Shown here: one piece after another, positions 43,892-58,515 of the stretch
How positions within the stretch are numbered: the stretch's first letter is position 1
Layout of the letters: every line of letters starts with the position of its first letter
NCBI GenBank assembly: GCA_017427715.1
Contig: JAFRSF010000026.1
Coordinates: forward strand, 6-64,005
Source: Alphaproteobacteria bacterium
Lineage (GTDB): Bacteria > Pseudomonadota > Alphaproteobacteria > Rs-D84
Reading direction: 5' to 3'
Length of the DNA: 64,000 nucleotides
Position numbers and translations under genes: made by a program
The notes under the pieces: generated by a model
Told to the model about the DNA's origin: nothing
Databases searched by the model: none
The model's input: the letters and a program-made list of their open reading frames with translations, nothing else

Positions 43892-43894
43892 GTC

Positions 43895-45160: not shown

Positions 45161-45180
45161 GTCCTTTCCTTTTTTGGTGT

Positions 45181-45210: not shown

Positions 45211-45228
45211 TGGTTTTCTAATAAAATT

Positions 45229-45531: not shown

Positions 45532-45534
45532 TGT

Positions 45535-45837
45535 CTAACCTTGACGTTTTGTTGCAAGACGCATATCTTGTTTCAGCATTTTGAATGCGGCATCCAAAGG
45601 CATACCACGATTTTCTTCCATGCTTTTCAAACCATCTTCAATGCCACGCATCATAGATCCCATCTCTGCATCGCGTGCAATTCTGTGATATTCGTTTGCG
45701 TCCAGCACAACCACAGATGCTGCACCGTTGACAGTCAAGACAGCTGGCGATTTATCATCTTTTATGCGCTTTACAACATCTGCTGCATTGCGCTTAAAAT
45801 CTGTTAAAGAAATAATATTTTCAGGATTTGCTATCAT
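45535..45837 (-). CDS. Type II antitoxin, Phd/YefM family
   Basis: ISLTDFKRNAADVVKRIKDDKSPAVLTVNGAASVVVLDANEYH. It lies 3 nt upstream of the toxin gene. Confidence 0.7.
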   Translation of the reverse strand: MIANPENIISLTDFKRNAADVVKRIKDDKSPAVLTVNGAASVVVLDANEYHRIARDAEMGSMMRGIEDGLKSMEENRGMPLDAAFKMLKQDMRLATKRQG

Positions 45838-45907
45838 TTTTACCTCGCATCTAATTTGATGTTCAATTTAATGCTAACATTATACCATAAAAAAGTCCAG
45901 AAAAAAA

Positions 45908-47473
45908 TTATTCTTCATCTTTTTCATCACCAGTATCATTGTCTATCGCTGTTACCAATCCTGCCTTGGTTCGTAGTTTCTGTTCCTTGGCTCGCTGGAT
46001 GTGTTTTGTTTCCCATGATCCACCTGTGATCTGCGCGGTTTCTTCTTCCAAAGTCGAAACGCCCAAATCCACCCGATATGCTGCGGCTCGGATTTCTTTC
46101 AATTGGTCAATCTGGCCCCTTGGTGGTCCGATCCATTCGGCACCAAGATATGCGGCCCGGACAAATGGGTCTGAAAAAAATCCTGGTGCATCCAGGAATC
46201 CTTTCGCTATTGCCTCGCTGATAACCATTTCATATACTGGTTGGCAAAATTGGTTTGCCATCCATGTCCGTCTGGCACTGAATGTTTTCCATGCCTCGAC
46301 CAATGCTGCTTGCGCTGCTGAATAACTTGATGTGAAATGCTTGATCAATATTTCAAATGGCAATTCCAATGCTACACCAATTTGCCGCAATATCGATTGA
46401 ACAAATCCATCAAATGATTGGTTCGGTCTTTTCGGATCTGCAATCTCAATCGCCTCATTCGGTTGTAAATCCAGAATGGCCCCGGGCGACAATTTATAAT
46501 CGCTGTTGCGTGGTGCTGCGGCTGTTTCTGTACCGGACATTGGTACCATCGGCTGCAATCCCTCTTCAGATTCTGTTTTTACAAATATCGTGAACATGGA
46601 TGATATCACTGCGGCCATGATTTCGGCCTCGGTGTATCTGTCCAATTGTTTCAAACTCTCGATCACTGGTGCCAAATATGGCACGCCCCGGGTCATTCCT
46701 GGTCTGTTTCTATTGAATACATGTAAAACCTGTCTGTATCCATTTTCATCAAACGCCGGAATCTTTGCATATTCCAGCGCACCTTGGTCATAATCATCTG
46801 GATGATGGTTTGCAATATGATAGGCAACTGGTGCGCCGTCATCATCCATTTCAATGCCAGCAATGATTTTATCGTTTGTTTGATCTGGATCTGCAACCCT
46901 GTCTGCCTCAACAATTTGAATTGCTGTTCCAAATGGTGTTCCTGGATGTTCTTTGTATTTCCGCAATGCGAAAACATCGCCAGATTCCAAACATGAACGC
47001 AAAACCAATGCTTGCATCTCTGCAAAGTTTTGGCATCTGGTTATGTCGCAATCTCTATTTGATGCCCATATTTGAAAAATGCGTTCTGCTTTGTTTTCCC
47101 ATTCTTCCATCGCATCATCGGTTTTCAAATATGGTCGCAGAACATTGCGGTCAACATGCGCCTGTGGTTTCAATCCTGTTCCGATAACATTGGTCACAAC
47201 TGTGCTGACCGCCCCAACTGCCAATGGGGCATTGCGCAATAAATCCCTGGAACGATCGCGTAGCACTGGCAAATCATCCAATGTCACATTATTCCCGGAT
47301 CCTTTGACCGGACTCCAGCTTTGTGTCTGGCGGCGGCTTTTGCTGGCACCGGTATATCCGCCCAGCATTGCCATCTGGGTGCGTGCCTGCCACCGTTTTA
47401 ATCCAGCTTGTGGCGATATCCATGAAATTGCTTTGTCCACAAATGTTTGTGGTGGTATTTTAATTTTGCTCAT
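45908..47473 (-). CDS. Portal protein (lambda gpB family)
   Basis: The N-terminal pattern AISWISPQAGLKRWQAR...LDDLPVLRDRSRDLLRNAP fits, and it lies after W and TerL. Confidence 0.85.
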   Translation of the reverse strand: MSKIKIPPQTFVDKAISWISPQAGLKRWQARTQMAMLGGYTGASKSRRQTQSWSPVKGSGNNVTLDDLPVLRDRSRDLLRNAPLAVGAVSTVVTNVIGTGLKPQAHVDRNVLRPYLKTDDAMEEWENKAERIFQIWASNRDCDITRCQNFAEMQALVLRSCLESGDVFALRKYKEHPGTPFGTAIQIVEADRVADPDQTNDKIIAGIEMDDDGAPVAYHIANHHPDDYDQGALEYAKIPAFDENGYRQVLHVFNRNRPGMTRGVPYLAPVIESLKQLDRYTEAEIMAAVISSMFTIFVKTESEEGLQPMVPMSGTETAAAPRNSDYKLSPGAILDLQPNEAIEIADPKRPNQSFDGFVQSILRQIGVALELPFEILIKHFTSSYSAAQAALVEAWKTFSARRTWMANQFCQPVYEMVISEAIAKGFLDAPGFFSDPFVRAAYLGAEWIGPPRGQIDQLKEIRAAAYRVDLGVSTLEEETAQITGGSWETKHIQRAKEQKLRTKAGLVTAIDNDTGDEKDEE

Positions 47474-47484
47474 TGTTCATCCGT

Positions 47485-47703
47485 TTATACTGGTGTGGCA
47501 CCGCGAACTGGAATGCCGCCGCGTTTTTTTAATGCGATTTGTTTTTGAAGATATTCCTCTCTGGCCTGTAATGCTGATAGGTCTGCTTTCCTAACTTTTT
47601 GATTGTTATATGATGCCTCTTGCGCACCGGTTAGGATCGCAGTGATTGCCTCTTGCACTTCGACCAATTGTTCTTCATAGGTTTTAATTCTTATCGTTGT
47701 CAT
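47485..47703 (-). CDS. Head-tail joining protein W (lambda gpW family)
   Basis: A 72-aa protein with YEEQLVEVQEAITAILTGAQEASY, located between TerL and the portal gene. Confidence 0.7.
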   Translation of the reverse strand: MTTIRIKTYEEQLVEVQEAITAILTGAQEASYNNQKVRKADLSALQAREEYLQKQIALKKRGGIPVRGATPV

Positions 47704-49592
47704 TCTATCCCCCGACTACGTACTGTTCTGCCGCGTGGTTGGATCGCCACTATTGGCTCGGGCCGCTTTTGTTCTTGAACAACCACAGGTTTGTGGGGTT
47801 GTTTCATTTTCATTTCGGCCAATTTGTCTGCGCCAAGATCCAGATTCAACCGGAAATTTCGGACCAATCCTCGCAATGCTGCATATGCATAAACGCGGCA
47901 ATCTAATCCCTCGGTTCGCACACCGTTCTTGCGTGGAACCCATTCCCGGATCAATCGTCCTTTGCTCAATTTCTTTGATGCAACCTCATTGGTTATTTGT
48001 TCAAACCAATCAGATTCTCGATCCATCGGGAAATGCCAGATGCCTGGTCCGCTACTGTCTTCCAAATGTAATCGCCGCATCAATGTATCTTTCGCATCAT
48101 TAACCCCGATCAAATAAACCGGTTTCTTGGTATTGTTGCTTTTGCTGGCTGTTGCTGGCCAAATTGGTTTTCCAACTCCGCCAACGCCCTTGATGGCAAA
48201 TACCCCATGCAATCGCCTTGCATGGCAATAATTGATCACATAATCTGTGTAGTGTCCGCCGCTATCGATGCATGTTGCTGCAATCGATAAATCTGGAACA
48301 TCTTTGCTATGTGAATATTTGCGACTCAAAACCTCATCCAATTGCGCCCACAATTCTGGTGTGCTTGGATCGCCATACAGAACTTGGTAATCAATTGACC
48401 ATGATTCTTCGCCGCGCCCCCATCCAACAATTTCCAATTCTAAACGGTTGTCTTGAACGTCCACGCCACAGGTCAATATCACAACCTGTCGTGGCAATTC
48501 TGGCCCCCATTTTTCTCTGCGAACCATCAAACTTGTCGGATCTATTTGCTGTCCGGCCATGTCTTCCCATGTTTCGGCCAGCTTTGTATTGGTCCATACT
48601 TGAAGTCGTGATGGATCATTTTTGGAATCCAAAAATTCTCTCGCAATACTCGTCCAACTGGTCCACCCATGCGGTGAATAAAGCGATGATAAATGAAATG
48701 AAACAACCCCGGAATTAACATTCGGTTTTGATGCAATCCATTTGCCTTTTTTAAGAATTTGTTCCTTTTCGTAATCGTGCCAAATCGCCTCACATTTTTC
48801 GCATTTATAAACTGCCTCTGTTAGGTTCTTTGGATCGAATATCACATTGCGCCATCGCAGCACTTGGAAATATCCACAATGCGGACATGGCACATGATAA
48901 TATCTTTGATCGCCCTCCAAAAATGCTTGCTCGATGCGGCTTGCATCTTTGATGGTCGGTGTTGATACCATGAAAATCTTGCGATTATTGAACGTTGCCG
49001 TTCTTTGTACTGCAAGATCCACTGGGTCGCCCTCGGTTCCGGCCTCATCTGGGAAGCCGTCTACCTCGTCCAGAAACAAATAACGAACAGGAAGTGATCG
49101 TAATCCGACCGGGGAATTCGCGCCGGTCAAGATCAAGATTCCACCCGGAAATTCTTTCATCAACATCGTGTTGCCACTGTCACGTGAACGTGGGCTTTTA
49201 ATTCTGTCGCGCAATACCGGGCAATTTTCTATTGCCGGATCAATGCGCATTCTGGATGTTCTTTTGGCCGTTTCTGTTGTTGGATTTACAATCAACATTG
49301 GCCCTGGTGCATTGCAGACGCAGAATCCCATCCAATTGTTTCCGCATTCTGTTCCGCCTACCTGTGCGCCTTTCATAAAAACAACCCTTTCACATGGGTG
49401 TTTGGGCGACAGGCAGTCCATAATCTCTTTCAAATATGGTGTCCTTTCGGTTTGCCATTTGCCTGGCTCGCTGCTCGACACACTGGATAGGAATCTATAT
49501 TCATCCGCCCATTCGGTAACTGTCTGAATTGGATCTCGTGCCAAGCCGTCAATTATTAAACAATTCGTCAAATTTTCATGATTGATTTCCAC
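47700..49592 (-). CDS. Terminase large subunit (lambda gpA family)
   Basis: WADEYRFLS...GKWQTERTPYLKEIMD...MKGAQVGGTE (Walker A-like); 630 aa. Confidence 0.9.
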   Translation of the reverse strand: MEINHENLTNCLIIDGLARDPIQTVTEWADEYRFLSSVSSSEPGKWQTERTPYLKEIMDCLSPKHPCERVVFMKGAQVGGTECGNNWMGFCVCNAPGPMLIVNPTTETAKRTSRMRIDPAIENCPVLRDRIKSPRSRDSGNTMLMKEFPGGILILTGANSPVGLRSLPVRYLFLDEVDGFPDEAGTEGDPVDLAVQRTATFNNRKIFMVSTPTIKDASRIEQAFLEGDQRYYHVPCPHCGYFQVLRWRNVIFDPKNLTEAVYKCEKCEAIWHDYEKEQILKKGKWIASKPNVNSGVVSFHLSSLYSPHGWTSWTSIAREFLDSKNDPSRLQVWTNTKLAETWEDMAGQQIDPTSLMVRREKWGPELPRQVVILTCGVDVQDNRLELEIVGWGRGEESWSIDYQVLYGDPSTPELWAQLDEVLSRKYSHSKDVPDLSIAATCIDSGGHYTDYVINYCHARRLHGVFAIKGVGGVGKPIWPATASKSNNTKKPVYLIGVNDAKDTLMRRLHLEDSSGPGIWHFPMDRESDWFEQITNEVASKKLSKGRLIREWVPRKNGVRTEGLDCRVYAYAALRGLVRNFRLNLDLGADKLAEMKMKQPHKPVVVQEQKRPEPIVAIQPRGRTVRSRGIE

Positions 49593-50058
49593 GTAAACAA
49601 CTCGTTAAAACTTCCAAGAATGATTCAAATTCTTTGGTTAAAATTTGTTCTATTTCGGCAATATCTGTCTTCCCGATTATTTGCGATGCGATCTTATGCG
49701 GTGCGCCCATCCATCTATCCCGGGCCGCACGTGCCGCATTGAAAACATCCGTTTCGACTTCTGCTCGCGGAATTAACTTTCCAATCCGTTCATCGTAATC
49801 CAGCTTTTTTAACATCAAGTCCAATGTTTCTCGCTTGTCCCGGGTGGAATGCGAAACTGGATTTCCTCGATCTTCATTTTTGTATACTGGGGCCAAATAT
49901 TCGTGCTTGGTGTTCTCATCCCACTCTTTATCGGCAATCTCTGGATCGATCATGCCATCGATGGTTGTTATCCGTTTGGTTGCAATCGCATTGCGAACGG
50001 CTTTATCGTCAACACCTCTATGTTTTGCATATTCACGCCTTGATAATAACATATTCAT
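49576..50058 (-). CDS. Terminase small subunit
   Basis: An N-terminal HTH (LSRREYAKHRGVDDKAVRNAI). Its 3' end overlaps the TerL start. Confidence 0.65.
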   Translation of the reverse strand: MNMLLSRREYAKHRGVDDKAVRNAIATKRITTIDGMIDPEIADKEWDENTKHEYLAPVYKNEDRGNPVSHSTRDKRETLDLMLKKLDYDERIGKLIPRAEVETDVFNAARAARDRWMGAPHKIASQIIGKTDIAEIEQILTKEFESFLEVLTSCLRGNQS

Positions 50059-50064
50059 TTTCCT

Positions 50065-51384
50065 TTATTGTTCTTGTGATAATTCATTGAATGTTTTGCC
50101 GGTTGCTTGATGTATCGCATCTCTGCCTGTGAATTCCTGCCATCTTCTGATCGTGGTATCCACATATTTTTCTTCGATTTCTATCATCCTGCAACGGCGG
50201 TGTGTTTTCTCGGCTGCAATCATTGTTGAACCAGATCCGCCGAAACAATCCAAAACGATATCGGATACTCTGCTTGAATTGTTGATTGCTCGTTCAATCA
50301 AAGCCACCGGTTTCATTGTTGGATGCAAATAATTGTTTGTTGGTTTGTCGAAATTCCAAACATCCGTTTGGCTGCGACCACCAAACCATGGGATTTCGCA
50401 TGGGCAATCTTTGCGCCCAACCATTACATCTTCATGGATTTCTTTGTATGGCGGTTCTTCTGGATCTAATTCGCCAAATAAAATCCATTCATTTTTGTGT
50501 TGGTATCTTGCCCGGGTTAATGAAAAACTATTCTTAACCCAAACAATGTATGCCTCCCATCTGCCACCGGCTGCCTCGAATGCCTCACGCAATGTATGCA
50601 ATTCGGCGCAACTCATGCAGATATAACTGGATCCCTTGGTGTAATTCAAAATATTCGTTACTGCTTTCAGTAAGAAATTATAAAATTCATGACCCAAATT
50701 ATCGTTCTTGATTGATCGATCCCGATTGGCATTTTTATCCGCAACGCTGCCACTGTATGCAACATTGTATGGTGGATCTGTAAATGTCATCGTTGCTTTT
50801 TCATCGCCCATCAACTTTTCAAAATTCTCTGGCAAACATGCATCGCCGCATAACAATTTATGTTCGCCAAGAATCCAAATATCGCCTTGTTTTGAAATGT
50901 ATTTATCCTGTGATTCCGGAACAATATCTTCAATTGCTGCGGCCTCGATTTCGCTTTCAAATTCCGCGGTGTATTTTTCCAATTCTTTTGTTGTGAATCC
51001 AAGAACCGTTAAATCAAATTCTTCATCATGCAATTGTTGCAAAATATCTTGCAACTTTTCATCATCCCATCCGGCATTTTCTGTGATGCGGTTGTCTGCA
51101 ACCAATAATCCCAATTTTTCTTTTTCAGACAAATGGCATAATTTTGCGACTGGAACTTGTCTGTATCCCAATTGCTTGCCGGCCATCAACCTGCCATGAC
51201 CTGCGATGATTTCCATATTCTCATCGACCAATATCGGATTGACCCAGCCGAATTTGCGCATTGAATCCGCGATCTGTTGAACCTGTTCGCGATTGTGTGT
51301 GCGCGGATTTCTTGCTGATGGTTTCACCGCATCGATATCAACATATTCGATGTTCAATTGTAAATCTTTGAAATCAATGTTCAT
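50065..51384 (-). CDS. ParB-like nuclease domain fused to N6/N4 DNA methyltransferase
   Basis: The ParB N-domain reads NPRTHNREQV...IIAGHGR. The methyltransferase has motif IV TFTDPPYNV and motif I VLDCFGGSGST. Confidence 0.85.
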   Translation of the reverse strand: MNIDFKDLQLNIEYVDIDAVKPSARNPRTHNREQVQQIADSMRKFGWVNPILVDENMEIIAGHGRLMAGKQLGYRQVPVAKLCHLSEKEKLGLLVADNRITENAGWDDEKLQDILQQLHDEEFDLTVLGFTTKELEKYTAEFESEIEAAAIEDIVPESQDKYISKQGDIWILGEHKLLCGDACLPENFEKLMGDEKATMTFTDPPYNVAYSGSVADKNANRDRSIKNDNLGHEFYNFLLKAVTNILNYTKGSSYICMSCAELHTLREAFEAAGGRWEAYIVWVKNSFSLTRARYQHKNEWILFGELDPEEPPYKEIHEDVMVGRKDCPCEIPWFGGRSQTDVWNFDKPTNNYLHPTMKPVALIERAINNSSRVSDIVLDCFGGSGSTMIAAEKTHRRCRMIEIEEKYVDTTIRRWQEFTGRDAIHQATGKTFNELSQEQ

Positions 51385-51402
51385 GGTTTTCTCTTTTGGT
51401 TG

Positions 51403-51519
51403 GGTGCGGACACATTTTGGTTAGGTGCGGACACATTCAAATGTGTCCGCACCCCAAAATCTTCATTTTGCCGCAGATTTCCGCCACTTTTTGTCGTGGG
51501 TGCGGACTGCGGACACATT
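51403..51519. repeat. Cluster of GGTGCGGACACATT motifs including a perfect 14-bp palindrome; candidate cos/terminase-binding or late-promoter control region
   Basis: Copies are at 51403-51416, 51424-51437, inverted at 51440-51453 (2-bp spacer) and 51508-51519, with a partial GGTGCGGAC at 51499-51507. The cluster lies upstream of the methyltransferase/terminase operon. Confidence 0.6.
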
Positions 51520-51604
51520 TGGCGGTCTGTGTGTAGCAAGGTGGCTTGCTCGCCGTTACCCTCGATCGTTTTTATTTCTGACAGAACCTATTTTTTTCAA
51601 CAAC

Positions 51605-52147
51605 CTATTGTAAATTCTGGGAAAACAACCGGGGAAATTCTGTTTTGGCTACATCTTCGCCAATCTCGATCATCTGTAAACGTTTCGGGACCAGCGCAAC
51701 GTTTTTGATGTGATATAAAATCTCAATGTCTTTGTTTATTCTTCGTGCAATAACCATGCCGCCGGATTTCAATGTCATCAGAAATGAATCCGGCTGATTG
51801 GTTTTCCGGACAGCTTTCAAATTGCGCAGGTCATCGTACTGCGGTATTGCCAACTGTCCGGATTTTGCGACACGTCTGCCGCCTGTCTGCTGCAATGTTG
51901 CGAATCCGGCCATTGTATAAACACTTGCTTGAAGTGTTTGTTTGGTTGCGGAACGGATCTTGATTGATTTCTCAAAATTCGGCTTTCTTAACACAAATGT
52001 GGAATGCAAATGCTGTTTGATTTGTTCCTGTGCCAATTGCGCCGTTTGGGTCAATGATTTTGCAGCAGTAAACAGAACATCTTTTTCGCATAGGGTCATC
52101 AATTTTGCGCTATCCGATGATGATAATTCAAGTTTGATGATTGCCAT
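51605..52147 (-). CDS. Hypothetical phage protein
   Basis: A 180-aa ORF. No clear Shine-Dalgarno precedes it, so the start is uncertain. Confidence 0.45.
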   Translation of the reverse strand: MAIIKLELSSSDSAKLMTLCEKDVLFTAAKSLTQTAQLAQEQIKQHLHSTFVLRKPNFEKSIKIRSATKQTLQASVYTMAGFATLQQTGGRRVAKSGQLAIPQYDDLRNLKAVRKTNQPDSFLMTLKSGGMVIARRINKDIEILYHIKNVALVPKRLQMIEIGEDVAKTEFPRLFSQNLQ

Positions 52148-52293
52148 TTTGCGTATTGAAAAACCGCCTTGCTGGCGGCTTTGTATATCGATGTCCTATT
52201 ATATCGAAAATATTATGTTATTTTTGCAAAAGTGTAAAGTGCTAATTTTTGCGACACTTTTATATTTGACTGGTTTTTCCTAGTTTTTCCTTG

Positions 52294-52710
52294 CTATGAC
52301 ATTAAATATGTTGATATTTTTATATTTGGCTTGCTCAATTTCTTTGCCAGATCTTCAATTGCGTTTTTATAATGCAATGCCACTGATTGCCGGGACAGAT
52401 GAACCTTTTTGCCTATCTTTGTCCAGCTTTTGCCGCAGGCCCGCATCCAAACGATCTTTTTATCTTTGTTGTCGTCTATCAATCTGAACCAGCGCAAAAC
52501 AACTTCTTCCCACATTGATATTTGTTTGTTTGTTGGTTGAAAATGTGGTTCGATATCATCATTCGTATCCCAAAGATATTCGTACCATTCTCTGACTATA
52601 TCCCATTTTTGCCCAACCACTTTTGCTGGTCTTACTGGTGGCAACGATTTATCAACCATTGCTGCGATCTTCAACCATTCTTCAATGATGCTTGGTGTCC
52701 ATATTTCCAT
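52294..52710 (-). CDS. Putative DNA-binding regulator (C-terminal sigma70-region-4/LuxR-like HTH)
   Basis: SWTKIGKKVHLSRQSVALHYKNAIEDLAKKL. It is the last gene of the early operon. Confidence 0.45.
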   Translation of the reverse strand: MEIWTPSIIEEWLKIAAMVDKSLPPVRPAKVVGQKWDIVREWYEYLWDTNDDIEPHFQPTNKQISMWEEVVLRWFRLIDDNKDKKIVWMRACGKSWTKIGKKVHLSRQSVALHYKNAIEDLAKKLSKPNIKISTYLMS

Positions 52711-52712
52711 TG

Positions 52713-53309
52713 TTATCCCTCTTGGCTGCTTTTATAAAATGCATGTTGCTTTTCTATCCAATCCAATAACTGGGCCATATTGATCCATTGACCTTTGCGT
52801 TTCTTTTTTAATGTCTTTTGTGCTGTTTCTATAACTGATGGTGGAAACATTGCCAAGTAATCTTTGAATTTTGGTTGGCATTGAATGACTAAATCGAATG
52901 TGAAATTTTCATCAATTGGAAACTCTGATATGTTTTCAACAGGCATTTCGGCATTTTCAACAGAGTTTTCAACAATTTTTTGTGCATTTCTTCTTTCACT
53001 TCCTTTTAATATTTTTATATTTATATTTTTATTTTCTTCTTTCTCTTCTTCTACTGATGATTTCTGTTGTGATTTCAATATTGAATTCAGACCTGTGCGA
53101 CAAGCTCGATTTAAACTCAACCGCATGCATTTTTCTTTGTATTTTTGCTCATCTTTTTCTATCTGTTTTTTCATGTATTTCCAAACACCCAGATCACTAT
53201 CTCGGTTTGGATATTCAAAGATGCACCGCAACAATTCTGCGCATTGCTCATCTGAAAAATCTTTGATAAGTACTGCCAATGCTGGATCTATCAATATTTT
53301 CATGTTCAT
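52713..53309 (-). CDS. Hypothetical phage early protein
   Basis: A 198-aa ORF in the early operon with a central acidic/lysine-rich low-complexity segment. Confidence 0.5.
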   Translation of the reverse strand: MNMKILIDPALAVLIKDFSDEQCAELLRCIFEYPNRDSDLGVWKYMKKQIEKDEQKYKEKCMRLSLNRACRTGLNSILKSQQKSSVEEEKEENKNINIKILKGSERRNAQKIVENSVENAEMPVENISEFPIDENFTFDLVIQCQPKFKDYLAMFPPSVIETAQKTLKKKRKGQWINMAQLLDWIEKQHAFYKSSQEG

Positions 53310-53312
53310 TCC

Positions 53313-53720
53313 TTATTGTTCAAATAATGTTGGTTGTCCGGCTTGTTTTTGCCAATTCACTTTGTATTGCACACAATCTTTGACCTCGGTTATGTAAAAC
53401 AATTCATCGCTTTGTCTGATGGTTTTCGCGTTCTTGGTTATAACAAATCTGTATATCTGAATCTTGCCTTGCAAAAACCAAACGCCATTGTTTGTGATTT
53501 GCCATTCGTTGTGTTCATTGGTTGGTATTGCCAAACCGAAATATCTCAATTTCTGAAAATTTGCGAACTGTGTATTATCCAGATTCATCTTGTCTAATCT
53601 GGCACGACCACCCATCGCATTCAATCTGGCCAAACATGAAACCAATGTTTTATTCATGGTGTGTTTGTATTCAACCAATTTGTGGCCACACATGGGGCAT
53701 ATAGAAACATTATTTTTCAT
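53313..53720 (-). CDS. Zinc-finger-containing phage early protein
   Basis: I chose the start at 53720 (MKNNVSICPMCGHKL). It contains a CxxC...C pattern. Confidence 0.5.
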   Translation of the reverse strand: MKNNVSICPMCGHKLVEYKHTMNKTLVSCLARLNAMGGRARLDKMNLDNTQFANFQKLRYFGLAIPTNEHNEWQITNNGVWFLQGKIQIYRFVITKNAKTIRQSDELFYITEVKDCVQYKVNWQKQAGQPTLFEQ

Positions 53721-53952
53721 CGTTGCCCCCTTTATTTTTATCCATCCGCGTGAATGAATTGAAAAACGTTCTTGTTTGTTCGTATTCTTGAACGGCTCTG
53801 CGTGGATACAAAACCCGGCCACCAATCTTCAAATATATCGGTCCACCTCCACATGAACGCCATTTTCGTAAAGTCGCTTGGTTGATTCCCCAATATTCAG
53901 AAAGATCTTTTTCTGTAAGCATGATCTTTTTTAATATCACATCGTCATCCAT
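53710..53952 (-). CDS. Excisionase-family HTH protein, first gene of the early operon (Cox/Cro-like by position)
   Basis: LTEKDLSEYWGINQATLRKWRSCGGGPIYLKIGGRVLYPRRAVQEYE. I chose the ATG at 53952; the longer listed ORF runs through the operator repeats. Confidence 0.6.
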   Translation of the reverse strand: MDDDVILKKIMLTEKDLSEYWGINQATLRKWRSCGGGPIYLKIGGRVLYPRRAVQEYEQTRTFFNSFTRMDKNKGGNDEK

Positions 53953-54039
53953 CGTAAAATTCCTTGCTTTTGGTTGTTTTTGCTTGCTTTCACTTGTTTT
54001 AACTGTACGAACATAATTTGCGTTTGTCGGTGGGGACTT

Positions 54040-54123
54040 TGAACGGAGATTGATGCCATCTGGTGTGGCATGGTGTGGCGATGGTGTGGCAAGTGAACGG
54101 AGCTTGTAGCCTTTTGGTGTGGC
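54040..54123. promoter_or_regulatory. Direct-repeat operator/iteron cluster between divergent early genes
   Basis: TGGTGTGGC occurs at 54061, 54071, 54082 and 54115. TGAACGGAG occurs at 54040 and 54094, each ~13-15 bp upstream of a TGGTGTGGC. Confidence 0.55.
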
Positions 54124-54170
54124 ACTTGAATAAACTTGAAACAATCGGTTGTTTTTACTATGATTCAAAC

Positions 54171-54389
54171 ATGGAAAAATTTACTAAGGATTTTATAAGA
54201 TTAAAAATTGATACTGCGATTGAACAAAATCCGGGTGTGCGGCCACTGTGCGTTACTATTGATGGGAAGAATTGTAAGTATATAATTTCCTACGATACTG
54301 TGGATCGTACGGTTACGGGTGTGATAGCCCAATATGCTCATAAAAAACGGCCAATCACTTTATCAGATATCTTGGCTGCAGACCAATAA
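54171..54389 (+). CDS. Small protein divergent from the early operon (immunity-repressor candidate by position only)
   Basis: A 72-aa ORF from the ATG at 54171. It is the only plus-strand gene in the early region. Confidence 0.35.
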   Translation: MEKFTKDFIRLKIDTAIEQNPGVRPLCVTIDGKNCKYIISYDTVDRTVTGVIAQYAHKKRPITLSDILAADQ

Positions 54390-55109
54390 TGGTGTTCCTT
54401 TTGGTGGCAAATTTAATTTGTATTTTCCTGTTTTATCAGATTTGATTATTCGGTGCCAATATCGATTGTGATTGAATATGCTACGTATTCGATCGCTGCT
54501 GGCACCAATGTCAGTCAATATGCGTTTGCCGTACATCCAAGGATTACCATCTTCTCTTGCTTGCCATAATCGCTTGATGACCTTTGCTTGCATTTCGCCA
54601 AACCGATATTCCTTTCCGCACCAAATAAAACAAGTAAAATCATCTGATAGCAGTTTGAATTCGTATTGTTTTTCATTGATATTGCCATGTTTGAATTCAA
54701 AATCTTCAACCTGTGTCATTGGGATTATGAGATCAAAAAAATCCACGCGGAGTGGACTTTCTAGGATTTCTTTCATATCGTAATCGCCGATACGAGCAAT
54801 TTCTATTTTATGTTCTTTGTTTTTGAACATCATATAGATATATCTATGATCTATATGCATGCCAGCTAATTGTCGAACCATAGTGTTATATTTTTCTGGT
54901 GGGGTTCGTGCCAGTGCAACTTCCAGCGCAGCAGGTCGTAAACAGAATCTTATTTTATCGGTTTCGGCCAGGGATTCTATTGTGGAAACTCTGCATTTCC
55001 AACGTTGTGCCAAGTCCTCTATACCCAAGAACTCAACGGGGATGTCCAACCCAGTCATGAACGTCCTTTTGTTGTGTGGTTCTATCAAAAAAGAAAAAGG
55101 GTCACCCAA
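54363..55109 (-). CDS. Hypothetical protein (start uncertain)
   Basis: A 248-aa ORF with no recognised motif, located between the switch region and int. Confidence 0.45.
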   Translation of the reverse strand: MGDPFSFLIEPHNKRTFMTGLDIPVEFLGIEDLAQRWKCRVSTIESLAETDKIRFCLRPAALEVALARTPPEKYNTMVRQLAGMHIDHRYIYMMFKNKEHKIEIARIGDYDMKEILESPLRVDFFDLIIPMTQVEDFEFKHGNINEKQYEFKLLSDDFTCFIWCGKEYRFGEMQAKVIKRLWQAREDGNPWMYGKRILTDIGASSDRIRSIFNHNRYWHRIIKSDKTGKYKLNLPPKGTPLLVCSQDI

Positions 55110-55298
55110 AGGGTAACTCCTTTCCTTATGGTTGCAAAATACAATATGTTTTTTTGATTTGCAATAATAAAAGACGCCTGTAAAAATAAAATCTGGATGG
55201 CTTGATTTTTCTGCTGTTTATGTTATAATATGGCTACTTTCCCCCCATATAAGAAAACTGTCCTAGGTATTGTTTCTTCCTATATTGTTATCAACATT

Positions 55299-55844
55299 TT
55301 ATATTAAAATGCGATTGTTTCCACGATCGTTCTTTTTATGCAGTTTGTCTTGTATGTATCCCCACATAAAATGCATTTCCTCTGTTGTGGTATTCTCTGA
55401 TTCCAACCATGATTCCGGTGTCGGCCATATTTTGCCAGTACCACATCCAACAACGGATATTACAAGTTCTTTTATTTGTCTTTTGCGCATTTCATTTCTT
55501 ATTGCTGCTTTGAATAACTCTCTTTTATCCAGCATGGCAAATGCCATGCTAATGCCATAATGATATGCCCACCATTTGGCCATCTTCAATTTATTCAACA
55601 TTGCGATCTTCATCATCAACACATTTATTGGGATCTCTTCCGGGGCATCCAGCAATTCATCTGCAAAATGTCGCCCAGTTTTCGCATTTAAAAATTCAAA
55701 GATTTCATCTTCCGTTTTGTTGGGATATATTTCTTCTAATTTTTGCGTTACAACATCCCAAATCTTTTGTGTATCTATCGCATTAAAACTATTGTTAATC
55801 GTGCCATAAAATCCAAACTTTTTATTTATTTCTACCATGTTCAA
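55299..55844 (-). CDS. Hypothetical protein
   Basis: A 181-aa ORF that overlaps the upstream gene by 4 nt. Confidence 0.45.
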   Translation of the reverse strand: MNMVEINKKFGFYGTINNSFNAIDTQKIWDVVTQKLEEIYPNKTEDEIFEFLNAKTGRHFADELLDAPEEIPINVLMMKIAMLNKLKMAKWWAYHYGISMAFAMLDKRELFKAAIRNEMRKRQIKELVISVVGCGTGKIWPTPESWLESENTTTEEMHFMWGYIQDKLHKKNDRGNNRILI

Positions 55845-56083
55845 TCCTCTTTGCCATCAAATTTTATATCCGCGGATCCCTTGAAGTCCTTTGGAATGTC
55901 ATATCCAATCTTGCGCAGCAATGCAACGATTTCCTTTTCTGTGCGACCATCTTCGATCCAACAATATGCATTGCTTTCTCTGGCATCGCGACCAAGCGCA
56001 CGACAAATTCTGCCTATGCCTGCATATGTTTCTATTTCATGATAAAATGCTGCCAAATATATGTTTTTCTTTTTTCTGATCAT
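55841..56083 (-). CDS. Hypothetical small protein
   Basis: An 80-aa ORF lying 3 nt downstream of the int stop. Confidence 0.4.
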   Translation of the reverse strand: MIRKKKNIYLAAFYHEIETYAGIGRICRALGRDARESNAYCWIEDGRTEKEIVALLRKIGYDIPKDFKGSADIKFDGKED

Positions 56084-56086
56084 GAT

Positions 56087-57337
56087 TTATCCCTCTTGTT
56101 GACATATGGTTTGTGTAATATGATTCACTGCTTTGAATGCTTGTGCATCTGCCAAATGCGTATACATTTCCGTAGTCGTTATTTTGCTGTGTCCGGCAAC
56201 ATCTTTCAGTGCTGTTATACTTTCGCCCATGTTGGCACCCATGGTAATGAATGAATGTCGTAAATCATGGATGCGCATATGTGGCAATCCAGCATCTTTC
56301 AATGCCCATTCAAAAGGTTTTCGAACATTGTCCACCGATTTGTTTTTATCCAATATCCCAGGGAATACAAATTTGCTGCCGATCAATTCTGCCTCTTTCA
56401 TTGCAAATTCCAATTCTTTTATTGCATCATCTGATAGCATCACATCTCTTGGCCCAGTTTTACTATCTTTCAAGTGGATTTTCTTTTCTGGCAATGATAC
56501 CTCATCCATTTCCAAATCCCGAATTTCTGAACAACGACATCCGGTCAATGCCAAAACTTTTAATACCCGGAATAATCTTGGATGCATTCTTGATTTTGCC
56601 GGGCCATTATCCAATGATTTGAACAGTCGTTTATATCCATCCAAATCCAATACTGTGGCTCTATATTTTGGCCCATGACCTTTTTTAATAAATCCACATA
56701 AATTTGATCGTCTTGGCATATATCCATATGATTCACACCAATCCCAAAAATTTGATAACAACGACAATATTTTATTCGCGGTTGAAAAGGATGTTTTCTT
56801 GGCCCATTCGGTATATGCATCCATGATATCTCTTTCTGTAAGATCTTCCAAATATCTTTTTCCAAATACCGGTCTTAAATACAATCTGAAATGCAATTGA
56901 TTTAATTGCTGCGTACTTGGTTTTTTGTGTACAGATGCATACTTGTCCATATAAACCGCGAAAGCGTTTTCAAATATTTTCTCTTGTGCATTACGGATCA
57001 ATCCTTTCGCCGTTTCTGTGGCATCATCATTTGTTGCTGTGCCTCTTACTGTGGCTAATACTTTGTTTTTAAGTATCATTGCGCGGATGTCTTTGGCTCT
57101 TTTATAAACTTCCCCCACATCCACAAAATCGGCCCATTTGCCCAGCATTAAAGTTTTTCTTTCATGACCTGTTCCTACTCTGCAATTAAGAAAAAAACTG
57201 ATCCCTTTGGTTTTTGCATAATATCTTAACTGCAGGCCCGGAATGGTTCCATCCATAATTTGCAGATTCACATCGGATTTTAATTGTGCAATCCATGAAT
57301 CCTTAAAAATTCTTCTTTTGCATTTCCATTCAGTCAT
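56087..57337 (-). CDS. int: Tyrosine integrase, P4-like (N-terminal arm-binding domain)
   Basis: GLQLRYYAKTKGISFFL at the N-terminus, and the catalytic region TGCRCSEIRDL...HDLRHSFIT...GHSKITTTEMYTH. The ATG at 57337 has an AAGAGG Shine-Dalgarno. Confidence 0.9.
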   Translation of the reverse strand: MTEWKCKRRIFKDSWIAQLKSDVNLQIMDGTIPGLQLRYYAKTKGISFFLNCRVGTGHERKTLMLGKWADFVDVGEVYKRAKDIRAMILKNKVLATVRGTATNDDATETAKGLIRNAQEKIFENAFAVYMDKYASVHKKPSTQQLNQLHFRLYLRPVFGKRYLEDLTERDIMDAYTEWAKKTSFSTANKILSLLSNFWDWCESYGYMPRRSNLCGFIKKGHGPKYRATVLDLDGYKRLFKSLDNGPAKSRMHPRLFRVLKVLALTGCRCSEIRDLEMDEVSLPEKKIHLKDSKTGPRDVMLSDDAIKELEFAMKEAELIGSKFVFPGILDKNKSVDNVRKPFEWALKDAGLPHMRIHDLRHSFITMGANMGESITALKDVAGHSKITTTEMYTHLADAQAFKAVNHITQTICQQEG

Positions 57338-57418
57338 TTTGCATACCTCTTTGTTGCGACACACACACTGCCATTAAAAAACTAAAAAGCAAGTAAAAAG
57401 AACGGGTTGTGCGATTTT

Positions 57419-57607
57419 TTATAATTCATCATTGAACCGGTTCAGCCATTCTTCAACATCTTCTTTTCTGTACCGGATCAATTTTTCCCCAAAACGCAAA
57501 TATTTTGGTCCAATCCCCAGTTTTCTATATCTGGCGATGCTGTATTCGGATATTCCAATAATTTTTGCAACTTGTTTTGGTGTTAACAATGGTTCTTTTG
57601 GATTCAT
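57419..57607 (-). CDS. alpA: AlpA-family HTH regulator/excisionase
   Basis: LTPKQVAKIIGISEYSIARYRKLGIGPKYLRFGEKLIRYRKEDVEEWL. I chose the ATG at 57607. Confidence 0.8.
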   Translation of the reverse strand: MNPKEPLLTPKQVAKIIGISEYSIARYRKLGIGPKYLRFGEKLIRYRKEDVEEWLNRFNDEL

Positions 57608-57829
57608 GATGTGTCCTTTTGGTTTGTTGTACATTTTTTATGGTATGGATAAAATCGGATTTTTCTATTCACAAATATCTAAAAATATCTACATTGTTTT
57701 TTATAAATCGTTCTTCAAATCTGGTGTGTTATTTTTGATTTCATATAAGAACCATTTTCAAAATCGGATAAATAATCGGCATTTGTTTCATATTTGAAAT
57801 CGTGAATGATATCCACAGGCATTTTTATA

Positions 57830-57858
57830 TTGACATCAGAAATGATTTCATATAAAAT
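57830..57858 (+). promoter_or_regulatory. Near-consensus sigma70 promoter (TTGACA-N17-TAAAAT) reading toward the tRNA-Asn 3' half
   Basis: Read directly from the sequence. No plausible ORF lies downstream, and the next terminator is at 58043-58065. Confidence 0.55.
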
Positions 57859-57992
57859 ATCATGTGCTATATGGCTGGCTCAGACATGTTTTTCGGGTGA
57901 GGCGCACTAATCCGCACACTAAAAACATGTTAAGAACGGGAAACCGGCGGAACCTGTGGCTTACAGCAGATTTTTTGATTTTATCATTAGGT

Positions 57993-58037
57993 CTGTTAAT
58001 CCATGTGTCGTTGGTTCGAGCCCAACTGCCGGAGCCA
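57993..58037 (+). pseudogene. tRNA-Asn 3' half (anticodon loop to CCA) on the plus strand
   Basis: CTGTTAA-TCCAT-GTGTC-GTTGG-TTCGAGC-CCAAC-TGCCGGA-G-CCA. The upstream sequence (TAGGT) cannot form the anticodon stem, and no 5' half lies on this strand. Confidence 0.9.
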
Positions 58038-58042
58038 GAATT

Positions 58043-58065
58043 TCCGCGGTTTCCGCGGATTTTTT
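58043..58065 (+). terminator. Intrinsic terminator immediately after the tRNA 3' half
   Basis: TCCGCGG-ttt-CCGCGGA followed by T6. Confidence 0.75.
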
Positions 58066-58306
58066 ATACAATAATTTTGCGGCAATCTGTTCCGGCATAT
58101 AAAGTTTTTGAACATAAAAAAATGATCATGATTTTTCATCAAATTTTTAAGAAAAAAATGCACCAGATTTTTTCTGTGCGACTGGGTTTTTGGTGTTACT
58201 TTGTGCGACTTTATCAAAAAATGGGGCAAGAAATAGCCATTTCTAGCCAGGAAAATTACTTGCTGATGATATCACAATGATATCAGAAATGGCAAAATTT
58301 AGACAT

Positions 58307-58334
58307 AAAAAAACCGCAGATTCCTGCGACTTTT
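58307..58334. terminator. Bidirectional hairpin terminator (stronger on the minus strand)
   Basis: A7-CGCAG-attc-CTGCG-ACTTTT. On the minus strand the stem is followed by T7. It lies ~45 nt downstream of the tRNA 5' half. Confidence 0.45.
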
Positions 58335-58374
58335 AGAAACATTTCAAAACATGTTTTTCAAAACCCGGTCAATT

Positions 58375-58412
58375 TTAACAGTCCATTGCTCTACCGACTG
58401 AGCTATGCCGGA
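58375..58412 (-). pseudogene. tRNA-Asn 5' half (acceptor strand to anticodon loop) on the minus strand, with its own promoter
   Basis: TCCGGCA-TA-GCTCAGTCGGTAGAGC-A-ATGGA-CTGTTAA, then non-tRNA sequence (AATTGACC...). The acceptor strand is complementary to TGCCGGA of the 3' half at 58027-58033. The upstream TTGACTT...TATTATAT region matches that of the intact tRNA-Asn at 9227. Confidence 0.9.
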
Positions 58413-58515
58413 ATGACAGCGCATATAATATACCCCTGAACCACATAAGTCAAGTATTTTGTGTGGGTTAATCAAAAGAATTTTCAACATTCCCACAATT
58501 CTGCCTTGTTGTTTG

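What the first reader, a model, noticed from the sequence alone, without database searches (positions are those of the whole stretch)
57830..58412. tRNA-Asn gene split at the anticodon loop into two oppositely oriented halves bounding a 375-bp invertible-looking segment next to int/alpA
The 5' half (58412->58375, minus strand, with its own promoter) and the 3' half (57993->58037, plus strand, with its own terminator) have mutually complementary acceptor strands (TCCGGCA/TGCCGGA). They differ from the intact copy at 9152-9227 by a compensatory pair, so they belong to one gene. Both halves retain the complete 7-nt anticodon loop CTGTTAA, as an inverted 7-bp repeat at 57993-57999 and 58375-58381. 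Flipping 58000-58374 in silico does two things. It recreates an intact 76-nt minus-strand tRNA-Asn. It also leaves ...CATTAGGT-CTGTTAA-AATTGACC... beside the P4-type int/alpA module, which looks like an attP-type site. This is the signature of tyrosine-recombinase crossover within a 7-bp overlap between inverted sites, not of a classical prophage junction, where the halves would be direct and ~28 kb apart. In the present orientation a near-consensus promoter (TTGACA-N17-TAAAAT, 57830-57858) transcribes ~130 nt of hairpin-rich sequence into the tRNA 3' half and its terminator. That sequence includes ACATGTTTTT...AAAAACATGT at 57884-57932 and a CGG-GAAA-CCG tetraloop. The motif ACATGTTTTTC also recurs at 58349-58359, in the extension of the 5' half. 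Possible readings are an integrase-driven ON/OFF switch of a tRNA gene, a frozen aberrant recombination product, or an RNA made only in one orientation. I know of no described system that reversibly splits a tRNA gene by inversion.
Basis: partly seen in the sequence, partly recalled or inferred. Interest (0 to 1): 0.8.

Follow-up and report, generated by a model that had tools for sequence, protein, structure and literature searches.

The report
Prophage junction beside old tRNA-Asn fragment
The two facing halves of a tRNA-Asn gene are most likely two separate scars left by phage integrases cutting in the anticodon loop, one a prophage end and one an older gene fragment, and not a tRNA gene switched on and off by flipping 375 bp.

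Summary
The sequence facts are correct. A 5' half (58412->58375, minus strand) and a 3' half (57993->58037, plus strand) of tRNA-Asn each end in CTGTTAA. Flipping 58000-58374 in silico makes a perfect 76-nt tRNA-Asn.

Related assemblies from uncultured rumen Alphaproteobacteria give a different reading.
- The 3' half is the host side of the int-proximal end of a P2-like prophage. The same phage arm joins at CTGTTAA to at least seven different right-hand sequences.
- The promoter, 5' half and following spacer also occur where no phage adjoins. There they face an intact convergent tRNA-Asn. A second species at about 88% identity has the 5' half and 190 bp of spacer, with no 3' half.
- No assembly shows the flipped orientation.
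- The pairing of this 3' half with this 5' half occurs only in the window. Four other records, including a 332-kb scaffold, link the same 3'-half module to a different 5' half. The link crosses 300 bp that is identical in every variant. It is therefore either a real recombinant or an assembly mis-join.

Verdict: ordinary att-site scars at a tRNA-Asn recombination hot spot. Low to moderate interest.

The parts
29751..57992 (-). P2-like myovirus prophage of about 28 kb: gpD, tape measure, sheath, tube and baseplate genes, ending in xis and int.
   Evidence: PHROGs hits and Pfam labels of called genes in identical contigs. GC content is raised across 30-52 kb. The distal boundary near 29751 comes from two alternative flanks.
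56087..57364 (-). Tyrosine integrase of the prophage.
   Evidence: Pfam Phage_integrase at E = 2e-22, plus SAM-like and central domains.
57419..57634 (-). Excisionase-like HTH_17/AlpA-family protein.
   Evidence: Pfam HTH_17 at E = 4e-11 and Phage_AlpA at E = 1e-4.
57635..57992 (.). Int-proximal phage arm ('P'), ending in ...TTATCATTAGGT.
   Evidence: The same arm is present in every contig that carries this phage end, whatever follows CTGTTAA.
57830..57858 (+). Promoter-like site TTGACA-17-TAAAAT inside the phage arm, reading towards the junction.
   Evidence: 11 of 12 consensus matches. Function was not tested.
57993..57999 (+). Crossover core CTGTTAA (the anticodon loop) at the phage/host junction, called J2 here.
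   Evidence: Homology among contigs breaks exactly here.
58000..58037 (+). Displaced host 3' half of a tRNA-Asn gene ('B-type' variant, including CCA).
   Evidence: Sequence. At the same position other genomes have the 3' half of an intact convergent tRNA-Asn. One has the phage arm joined to the other allele of this 3' half (L049).
58043..58066 (+). Intrinsic terminator of that tRNA gene.
   Evidence: A homologous terminator follows the intact gene in L002.
58075..58374 (.). 300-bp spacer that is identical in all variants. Its part 58188-58374 is also conserved in a second species.
   Evidence: Alignments. BLAST match L032 5898-7489 = window 59779-58188.
58302..58334 (-). Terminator about 45-75 nt downstream of the orphan 5' half.
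   Evidence: The stem is conserved in L032 although the loop has changed.
58375..58381 (-). Second CTGTTAA core, where the orphan 5' half joins non-tRNA DNA, called J3 here.
   Evidence: The spacer side joins here to two different 5' halves in different records.
58382..58412 (-). Orphan 5' fragment of tRNA-Asn (B-type): acceptor strand, D arm and the 5' strand of the anticodon stem.
   Evidence: Present in 12 loci next to the MFS transporter gene.
58425..58453 (-). Promoter of the orphan 5' fragment (TTGACT-17-TATTAT), belonging to the upstream block shared by the tRNA-Asn paralogues.
   Evidence: Similar to the promoters of other tRNA-Asn loci.
9152..9227 (-). Intact tRNA-Asn (A-type). Its CTGTTAA is a direct repeat of the one at 58375-58381.
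7639..9084 (-). Divergent integrase of a separate defence-type island lying downstream of the intact tRNA-Asn.
   Evidence: PHROG phrog_1 (integrase) at E = 9e-21. Neighbouring genes are a methylase, a T5orf172 protein and a helicase.

Best explanation
The region holds two independent recombination scars at a tRNA-Asn hot spot. They face each other because the chromosome carries, or once carried, convergent tRNA-Asn genes here.

Scar 1 (57635-58066) is the int-proximal end of a P2-like prophage. Its tyrosine integrase crosses over within the 7-nt anticodon loop of tRNA-Asn genes. The phage arm takes the place of the promoter and 5' half. What remains is the displaced host 3' half with its own terminator. 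This phage arm does not rebuild the tRNA, so the targeted gene copy is inactivated.

Scar 2 (58302-58453) is an older displaced fragment made of the promoter and 5' half of another tRNA-Asn gene. It joins non-tRNA DNA at the same 7 nt, and a terminator follows. It has the form of a left-hand (attL-type) junction left by an earlier element.

The roughly 340 bp between the scars is ordinary resident DNA, not an invertible cassette.

Shown here: which side of each junction is constant and which varies, the empty-site form, conservation in a second species, and the absence of flipped forms. Inferred: that the integrase made both junctions, the order of events, and which element made scar 2.
For: 1. 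Contigs of the same species (99.7% identity) have the MFS gene, promoter, the same 5' half, CTGTTAA and the same spacer, followed by an intact convergent tRNA-Asn with no phage adjoining (L001-L005; L033).
2. A different species (L032, about 88% nt identity) has the MFS gene, promoter, a 5' half, CTGTTAA, a diverged spacer with the terminator stem conserved, and about 190 bp homologous to window 58374-58188. A LeuRS-like gene follows, and there is no 3' half there.
3. The phage arm ...CATTAGGT-CTGTTAA joins at least seven different right-hand sides. Five are tRNA-Asn 3' halves, each with its own downstream DNA: this B-type 3' half with the spacer (7 loci), the A-type allele at the same locus (L049), a locus called D here (L019, L064, L067, L071, L073), another locus (L069) and the L020 locus. 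The other two are non-tRNA sites (L022, L068). The downstream DNA of locus D is syntenic with L032.
4. Neither phage-arm-CTGTTAA-spacer nor an intact B-type tRNA appears in any locus or in IMG/VR viral contigs.
5. Anticodon-loop crossover is a common, described class. Displaced 5' tRNA-gene fragments are a described minority class. Islander lists 2083 anticodon-centred attP sites, and 159 islands with 5' fragments against 3760 with 3' fragments (PMC4383910).
Against: 1. The matching left-hand junction of the prophage was not found. No CTGTTAA and no tRNA piece lies at its distal end near 29751, so a textbook pair of phage ends is not demonstrated.
2. In this dataset the B-type 5' half and the B-type 3' half are the only B-type pieces seen. 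They pair perfectly, which suggests a shared origin in one gene.
3. The spacer side of the second junction joins two different 5' halves in different records: B next to the MFS gene, and D in L026, L065, L066 and L070. That junction has therefore also taken part in exchanges and may not be a fully dead scar.
4. The same 300-bp spacer occurs twice, inverted and 50 kb apart, in one 332-kb scaffold. I have no worked-out account of that duplication.
Confidence: 0.68

Rival explanations
1. Assembly mis-join. The 3'-half module and the 5' half next to the MFS gene are not neighbours in the real genome. The assembler crossed from one copy of the 300-bp identical spacer to the other. The nature of each junction, as described in the best explanation, would be unchanged. 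The 'split gene with matching halves 375 bp apart' would be an artefact.
For: Window 58075-58374 plus the core is 100% identical in all variants. In four independent records the module phage-arm-CTGTTAA-B-type-3'-half-spacer is linked to a different 5' half (D): L026, L065 (80-kb scaffold), L066 (332-kb scaffold_27) and L070. In five records the 5' half next to the MFS gene is linked to an intact A-type tRNA. Only the window has the B/B link. Scaffold_27 carries both spacer copies in inverted orientation 50 kb apart, which is the situation that produces mis-joins. Several contigs break inside or at the edge of this repeat: L006-L008 at 58074, L035 at 58214 and L021 at 58281.
Against: The left part of the window belongs to a lineage supported by independent contigs (L036; L021/L072), and that lineage differs from scaffold_27 beside the intact tRNA. 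It may therefore have only one spacer copy, which would force the B/B link. The origin of the window and the read type are unknown. Recombination between the two 310-bp inverted copies would produce the same link biologically.
Confidence: 0.35
2. The prophage integrase reversibly, or once, inverted the 375-bp segment between two inverted CTGTTAA cores. This split one tRNA-Asn gene and left an attP-like site next to int.
For: The two cores are inverted repeats 375 bp apart, next to int and xis. The in-silico flip gives a perfect tRNA. Both cores show alternative partners across assemblies, so both have been recombination sites. An 11-nt motif is shared by the phage arm and the spacer end.
Against: The 5' half and spacer exist without the phage arm or the 3' half, in this species and in a second species. 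The phage-arm junction is a true phage/host boundary at several other loci. The flipped form is never seen: 0 of 7 phage-arm junctions with this 3' half and 0 of 12 junctions of this 5' half. In the common arrangement the flip would join a D-type 5' half to the B-type 3' half, which gives a G3.G70 mismatch. Next to the core, the spacer side (AATTGACC) has nothing resembling the ..GGA/TCC.. core arms present at the tRNA and at the other junctions. Repeats of 11-13 nt are at chance level in this AT-rich stretch.
Confidence: 0.06
3. Both halves come from one integration event of this phage, or a close relative, into a B-type tRNA-Asn next to the MFS gene. They would then be its two ends (attL and attR). 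A later large inversion of the whole prophage, not of 375 bp, brought them face to face.
For: The halves are perfectly complementary, and in this dataset B-type sequence occurs only in these two pieces. The 5' half-CTGTTAA-spacer has the form of a left-hand junction, and the phage arm-CTGTTAA-3' half the form of a right-hand junction. The prophage lacks a left-hand junction at its distal end. That distal end near 29751 is a recurrent rearrangement breakpoint with two alternative flanks.
Against: The 5' half and the first 190 bp of spacer are shared with a second species that has no phage there. The same spacer also sits beside an intact A-type tRNA. The model needs extra steps to explain two spacer copies in one genome. 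No contig joins the spacer to the distal end of the phage.
Confidence: 0.15

Closest known systems
Integration of phages and islands in the anticodon loop of tRNA genes (anticodon-centred class of Williams 2002; Islander database)
   Same: A tyrosine integrase lies next to the junction. Crossover falls within the 7-nt anticodon loop. A tRNA gene fragment marks the end of the element. Several copies of the same tRNA gene are used as targets (PMC4383910).
   Different: The int-proximal arm replaces the 5' side of the gene and does not rebuild it, so the targeted copy is lost. The partner junction at the other prophage end was not found.
Islands that leave a displaced 5' tRNA-gene fragment (159 of about 3900 Islander islands)
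   Same: A promoter-bearing 5' fragment ends at the crossover site. It lies in direct orientation with an intact tRNA-Asn at 9152-9227 and has integrase genes in between. A relative in IMG/VR (L042, Int 54% identical) has a tRNA-Asn promoter and 5' half at the position of the phage arm, 340 nt from xis compared with 358 nt here.
   Different: The 49 kb in between contains ordinary chromosomal genes and is not a coherent island. The element that made the fragment is not identified.
Chromosomal inversions between prophage or att-related repeats
   Same: Two arrangements differ in which flank is joined to which across inverted copies of the same 310 bp, 50 kb apart. The distal phage end also has two alternative flanks consistent with an inversion of about 40 kb.
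   Different: Not shown within one strain. Site-specific recombination, homologous recombination and mis-assembly cannot be told apart here.
Phage regulatory switches (active lysogeny: reversible excision restores a split host gene)
   Same: A host gene is interrupted by a prophage that encodes Int and Xis.
   Different: That mechanism restores the gene by excision between directly repeated ends. No restored form was seen at this locus in lysogens, and several other tRNA-Asn copies exist.
Site-specific invertible switches (fim, hin, shufflons)
   Same: Short inverted repeats flank a small segment next to a recombinase gene.
   Different: Only one orientation is seen. The repeats are 7 bp cores shared with every tRNA-Asn gene. 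A true switch of this kind lies elsewhere in the window, at 28967-29108.
Split tRNA genes of Nanoarchaeum and related archaea
   Same: Separate 5' and 3' half genes, each with its own promoter-like site.
   Different: There are no complementary leader and trailer sequences directly adjoining the halves. The organism is a bacterium without the archaeal splicing endonuclease system. The halves are explained by integration junctions.

Membership tests
Prophage end in a tRNA gene (attR-type junction, anticodon-loop class) | A tyrosine integrase, usually with an excisionase, is encoded next to the junction. | tested here: met
   Pfam Phage_integrase at E = 2e-22 and HTH_17/AlpA.
Prophage end in a tRNA gene (attR-type junction, anticodon-loop class) | The junction lies at the anticodon loop, with a tRNA fragment on the host side. 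| tested here: met
   CATTAGGT|CTGTTAA|TCCATGTG... followed by the T arm, acceptor strand, CCA and terminator.
Prophage end in a tRNA gene (attR-type junction, anticodon-loop class) | The element side is constant and the host side varies between genomes. | tested here: met
   One phage arm and at least seven right-hand sequences. The locus D flank is syntenic with another species.
Prophage end in a tRNA gene (attR-type junction, anticodon-loop class) | An unoccupied site (intact tRNA gene) exists at the same locus in relatives. | tested here: met
   L001-L005 and L033 have an intact convergent tRNA-Asn at that position. It is the A-type allele. An intact B-type gene was not found.
Prophage end in a tRNA gene (attR-type junction, anticodon-loop class) | A matching junction with a directly repeated core lies at the other end of the prophage. 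| tested here: not met
   No CTGTTAA lies between 26866 and 31793, and no tRNA piece lies at the distal end. The distal end joins two different non-tRNA flanks.
Displaced tRNA-gene fragment (Islander island signature) | A partial tRNA gene ends at a known crossover position. | tested here: met
   The 5' fragment ends exactly after the anticodon loop.
Displaced tRNA-gene fragment (Islander island signature) | The fragment and an intact gene of the same tRNA lie in direct orientation and bracket an integrase-bearing element. | tested here: inconclusive
   58375-58412 (-) and 9152-9227 (-) are direct, 49 kb apart, and have int genes between them. The interval includes about 20 kb of chromosomal genes shared with other arrangements.
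Site-specific invertible DNA switch | Inverted repeats bound the segment and a recombinase gene is adjacent. | tested here: met
   The 7-bp cores at 57993-57999 (+) and 58375-58381 (-), with int 630 bp away.
Site-specific invertible DNA switch | Both orientations occur in populations or relatives. | tested here: not met
   0 flipped junctions among 7 phage-arm and 12 5'-half junctions in independent assemblies. No hit for either flipped junction in IMG/VR. Assemblies report only the majority form, so minor subpopulations were not testable.
Site-specific invertible DNA switch | The segment and its bounding sites occur together as a unit. | tested here: not met
   The 5' half and spacer occur without the phage arm or the 3' half. 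The phage arm occurs without the spacer.
Split tRNA genes joined in trans (Nanoarchaeum type) | Complementary sequences directly flank the two halves and bring the transcripts together. | tested here: not met
   The only shared element is an 11-nt motif 21 nt from one core and 98 nt from the other. It is already paired within a local hairpin.

The most novel reading that the evidence does not exclude
The 375-bp module consists of a tRNA-Asn 3' half, its terminator and 310 bp, bounded by inverted anticodon-loop cores. It occurs twice, in inverted orientation, flanking about 50 kb that holds the prophage and about 20 kb of chromosomal genes in one genome. Recombination at these modules, either by the prophage integrase at the cores or by homologous exchange in the 310-bp repeat, would flip that 50 kb. 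The flip would re-pair the tRNA-Asn 5' and 3' halves. The window would then be a real alternative state, in which the cognate B-type halves end up 375 bp apart. The promoter-bearing 5' fragment with its own terminator, conserved across species, might also be expressed as a stable RNA of about 105 nt.
Probability: 0.2. Interest if true: 0.5.

Novelty: new member of a known kind. Interest (0 to 1): 0.27.

Why it matters
The evidence points away from that.

What remains has modest value. It is a clear example of a phage integrase family that cuts in the tRNA-Asn anticodon loop, with its int-side arm occupying the 5' side of the gene. Lysogeny therefore destroys one gene copy instead of rebuilding it. 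Leftover 5' fragments that keep a live promoter persist across species. Such fragments, together with identical short spacers, make these loci prone to real rearrangements and to assembly errors. Anyone annotating tRNA sets or prophage borders in metagenome-assembled genomes should take this into account.

Tried and rejected
- ARAGORN and Rfam at the site found nothing beyond the intact gene.
- Phage database search of 55800-58500 gave only a 47-nt tRNA-like hit.
- Searching for the phage's free attP found nothing. Exact scans of IMG/VR for the phage-arm junction, for core+spacer, for the L022 right-hand side and for the B-type 3' half all gave 0 hits. The metagenome scan for the phage-arm junction gave one true hit (L049) and four chance hits.
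- L022 and L068 (phage arm-CTGTTAA-TCCGT[AG]TGTCGGTT...) were considered as the free attP. L068 is flanked by host LysR and SAM-synthetase genes, so they look like integrations at secondary sites. This is unresolved.
- Searching for the left-hand prophage junction failed. No core or tRNA piece lies near 29-31 kb. The alternative distal flank in L051 shows no similarity to the spacer. L060-L062 have no core beyond the PLD-like gene.
- I walked to the flank upstream of locus D through a protein homologue search, hoping to find that 5' half joined to the phage's true far arm. Only intact tRNA-Asn genes with other downstream elements turned up.
- The idea that the 3' half and terminator are carried by the phage was rejected, because the right-hand side of the phage arm varies.
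- The idea that the spacer is the arm of an element family sharing the motif TTGCGGCAAT.TGTTC.GG.ATA.AA was tested. Similarity is limited to that motif.
- Trans-assembly of two half-tRNA transcripts was rejected (see the membership test).
- A single-step derivation of the window from the scaffold_27 arrangement, or the reverse, could not be made to fit. The gene cassette beside the intact tRNA also differs between them.
Full report
OBSERVATION

The sequence is as described. A tRNA-Asn 5' half with the full anticodon loop lies at 58412->58375 on the minus strand. A 3' half that begins with the same loop lies at 57993->58037 on the plus strand and is followed by a terminator hairpin. ARAGORN and Rfam see only the intact gene at 9152-9227.

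The halves belong to a distinct sequence variant, called B-type here. Compared with the intact A-type copy, B-type has C3:G70 instead of G3:C70, one compensated D-stem pair and two compensated T-stem pairs. Flipping 58000-58374 in silico gives a flawless 76-nt tRNA-Asn and leaves CATTAGGT-CTGTTAA-AATTGACC beside the integrase region.

The promoter-like site at 57830-57858 matches 11 of 12 consensus positions. The orphan 5' half also has a promoter-like site (58453-58425) and a terminator of its own (58334-58309). The shared motif ACATGTTTTTC is real, but perfect repeats of 9-13 nt are frequent in this AT-rich stretch.

SURROUNDINGS

- Window 29.8-58.0 kb is a P2-like myovirus prophage with gpD, gpU, tape measure, tube, sheath and baseplate genes. 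It ends in an HTH_17/AlpA-type excisionase-like gene (57419-57634) and a tyrosine integrase (56087-57364).
- To the right lie an MFS transporter gene and glycosyltransferase genes.
- The intact tRNA-Asn at 9.2 kb is followed by a divergent integrase (7639-9084) and a defence-type island with a methylase, a T5orf172 protein and a helicase.
- The closest named relatives are uncultured rumen Alphaproteobacteria genomes assembled from metagenomes.

WHAT RELATED ASSEMBLIES SHOW

1. The 5' half exists without an adjoining phage. Contigs of the same species (99.7% identity) run MFS gene, promoter, the same B-type 5' half, CTGTTAA and the same spacer. They then reach an intact tRNA-Asn gene in convergent orientation, with no phage adjoining (L001-L005; L033). 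The window's 3' half sits exactly where the 3' half of that convergent gene lies.

2. The 5' half is old. A different species (L032, about 88% nt identity through the MFS gene) has the MFS gene, a promoter, a tRNA-Asn 5' half and CTGTTAA. A diverged spacer follows with the terminator stem conserved, and about 190 bp is homologous to window 58374-58188. A LeuRS-like gene comes next. There is no 3' half or phage there. The orphan 5' half and half of the proposed invertible segment therefore predate, or are independent of, the 3' half and this prophage.

3. The 3' half is the host side of a prophage end. The phage arm ending in ...TTATCATTAGGT joins at CTGTTAA to at least seven different right-hand sequences. 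These are:
   - the B-type 3' half with the spacer (window, L021/L072, L026, L065, L066, L070);
   - the A-type allele at the same locus (L049);
   - a locus called D here (L019, L064, L067, L071, L073);
   - two further tRNA-Asn loci (L020, L069);
   - two non-tRNA sites that share only about 12 nt with the tRNA (L022, L068).
   The downstream flank of locus D is syntenic with the intact gene of L032. A constant element side with a variable host side is the signature of an ordinary phage/host junction. It also rules out the idea that the phage carries the 3' half.

4. No flipped form was found. Across all fetched loci there is no phage arm-CTGTTAA-AATTGACC and no intact B-type gene. IMG/VR has neither.

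5. This pairing of halves is unique to the window. The 300 bp at 58075-58374 is identical in every variant. On its left it carries either the phage arm with the B-type 3' half or the intact A-type gene. On its right it carries either the MFS-side B-type 5' half or a D-type 5' half with a different flank. The observed linkages are B-3'/D-5' (L026, L065, L066, L070) and A/B-5' (L001-L005, L033). B-3'/B-5' occurs only in the window. One 332-kb scaffold, scaffold_27, contains both modules inverted and about 50 kb apart. They flank the prophage and about 20 kb of chromosomal genes (L066, L059, L033, L001).

INTERPRETATION

Both breaks lie exactly at the anticodon loop. This is the crossover site of a large, described class of tyrosine integrases. 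Islander lists 2083 anticodon-centred attP sites (PMC4383910).

The junction at 57993 is a normal int-proximal prophage end. In this phage the arm lies on the 5' side of the gene and does not rebuild it. The five bases before the loop (TAGGT) cannot pair with TCCAT. The targeted gene copy is therefore lost and its 3' half is left stranded with its terminator.

A relative in IMG/VR (L042, Int 54% identical) has a tRNA-Asn promoter and 5' half at the equivalent position, 340 nt from xis compared with 358 nt here. Elements of this kind would displace the host promoter and 5' half. Islander records such 5' fragments as a minority class, 159 against 3760. The orphan at 58375-58453 has exactly that form. 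It is a host promoter and 5' half joined at the core to foreign-looking DNA that soon terminates transcription.

I therefore read the region as two separate att-type scars facing each other, not as one gene split by a local flip. This conclusion rests on points 1-4 above. That the integrase made both scars, and the order of events, are inferences.

WHAT DOES NOT FIT NEATLY

- I could not find the prophage's other junction. Its distal end near 29751 has no core. It joins either a serine-invertase gene and an ABC transporter gene or, in other contigs, a different 8-kb block leading to the EamA gene.
- In this dataset B-type sequence occurs only in these two pieces, and they pair perfectly. They probably descend from one B-type gene.
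- The spacer side of the second junction joins two different 5' halves, so that junction has also been a site of exchange.
- The spacer is duplicated in inverted orientation in one genome.
- One alternative account is that the two halves are the two ends of a single integration event, later brought face to face by a large inversion. It explains the complementarity. It conflicts with the second-species evidence and needs extra steps.
- I could not derive the window from the scaffold_27 arrangement in one step. The gene cassette next to the intact tRNA-Asn also differs between them: a MYG1-like gene and a methyltransferase gene in the window, against a 154-aa gene, AsnRS and an acetyltransferase gene in scaffold_27.

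IS THE ADJACENCY REAL?

The link crosses a 300-bp exact repeat that is present twice in at least one related genome, and only the window shows this pairing. A mis-join is therefore a serious possibility, which I put at about one in three.

Two points argue the other way. The left part of the window belongs to a lineage supported by independent contigs (L036, L021), and that lineage may have only one spacer copy. Recombination between the two inverted copies would also create this link biologically. Only reads from the source sample can decide.

THE RNA CLAIMS

The promoter-like site in the phage arm is strong on consensus. A transcript from it would run through a stable hairpin (57884-57930) into the stranded 3' half and its terminator. 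The fold has z = -3.9, but much of that comes from the hairpin and the terminator. The orphan 5' half would give an RNA of about 105 nt with an unremarkable fold, z = -2.1. Nothing here tests whether either RNA is expressed or has a function.

COMPARISON AND VERDICT

In mechanism this is tRNA-gene integration of the anticodon-loop class, together with a displaced 5' fragment. Most defining features of a prophage end are met. The one that is not met is the partner junction at the other end.

The defining features of an invertible switch fail on two counts: only one orientation is seen, and the parts do not occur together as a unit. The split-tRNA analogy fails because the halves lack adjoining complementary sequences.

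I class the finding as a new member of a known kind, of low to moderate interest. The most novel reading still open is a real 50-kb inversion polymorphism mediated by the duplicated half-tRNA modules. I give it a probability of about 0.2.

Noticed in passing
window 28967-29108: A 142-bp segment lies between the serine DNA-invertase gene (29097-29714, Resolvase + HTH_7) and the ABC transporter gene (27092-28882). It is flanked by 17-nt inverted repeats, AACCGTCGTTAAATTTA and TAAATTTAACCACGGTT. It is found in the opposite orientation, at 100% identity, in L015 (NCBI GCA_017427305.1) and in L052 (scaffold_27). This looks like a genuine invertible promoter-type switch.
   Followed up: partly
window about 29751 (37 bp upstream of the invertase start codon): The distal end of the prophage, after the PLD-like gene, joins two alternative flanks. 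One is the invertase and ABC transporter genes (window, scaffold_27). The other is an 8-kb block leading to the EamA and rhamnosyltransferase genes (L051, L053, L060-L062). In scaffold_27 those EamA and rhamnosyltransferase genes lie on the far side of the MFS region. The pattern fits a chromosomal inversion of about 40 kb.
   Followed up: partly
window 1-9151: A defence-type island lies downstream of the intact tRNA-Asn. It carries a divergent integrase (7639-9084), a MarR-fused N6/N4 methylase (3727-5415), a T5orf172 protein (1519-2691) and a helicase C-terminal domain protein (23-1522). In L039-L041 the same island adjoins a tRNA-Asn with a different upstream arm.
   Followed up: partly
window 9344-11140: A cassette polymorphism lies next to the tRNA-Asn promoter. 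The window and L036 have a MYG1-like gene and a methyltransferase gene here. scaffold_27 and others have a 154-aa gene, an Asn/Asp-tRNA synthetase gene and an acetyltransferase gene. The flanks are 99.98% identical.
   Followed up: no
L042 1-570 (IMG/VR), L039 and L040 1-530: A relative of the phage (Int 54% identical) has a complete tRNA-Asn promoter and 5' half in its int-proximal arm. Upstream are tandem GTCTACAC repeats and ACGGAAT motifs. The contig ends exactly at CTGTTAA. The same arm precedes the tRNA of the defence-island locus in L039 and L040.
   Followed up: partly
window 58075-58105; L020, L043, L074: The motif TTGCGGCAAT[CT]TGTTC[CT]GG[CT]ATA.AA lies about 35-60 nt downstream of tRNA-Asn 3' ends at several unrelated loci. 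Its part TTCCGGCATA equals the first bases of the B-type tRNA. Its meaning is unknown.
   Followed up: partly
L043 about 600-1400 (reverse-complement reading): Several near-palindromes of the form GACA[TC]ACGGA-N7-8-TCCGT[AG]TGTC lie on both sides of the core of a related phage end. They mimic a perfected anticodon stem-loop core and may be integrase-binding sites.
   Followed up: no
window 29751-29961: A 210-bp non-coding stretch lies between the PLD-like gene and the invertase gene. It contains repeated CCCGAC/GTCGGG elements and is conserved at about 80-96% in contigs with either flank. It has no Rfam match at gathering threshold.
   Followed up: no
window 61308-61545 and 62164-62401: A 238-bp direct repeat (97.5% identity) lies within two paralogous 200-aa genes of the cluster upstream of the MFS gene.
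   Followed up: no
L034 16243-19010: A third arrangement lacks the convergent tRNA-Asn, the spacer, the orphan 5' half and the MFS gene altogether. The acetyltransferase gene is followed directly by diverged (84.5% identity), inverted copies of the 176-aa gene and the glycosyltransferase gene.
   Followed up: no
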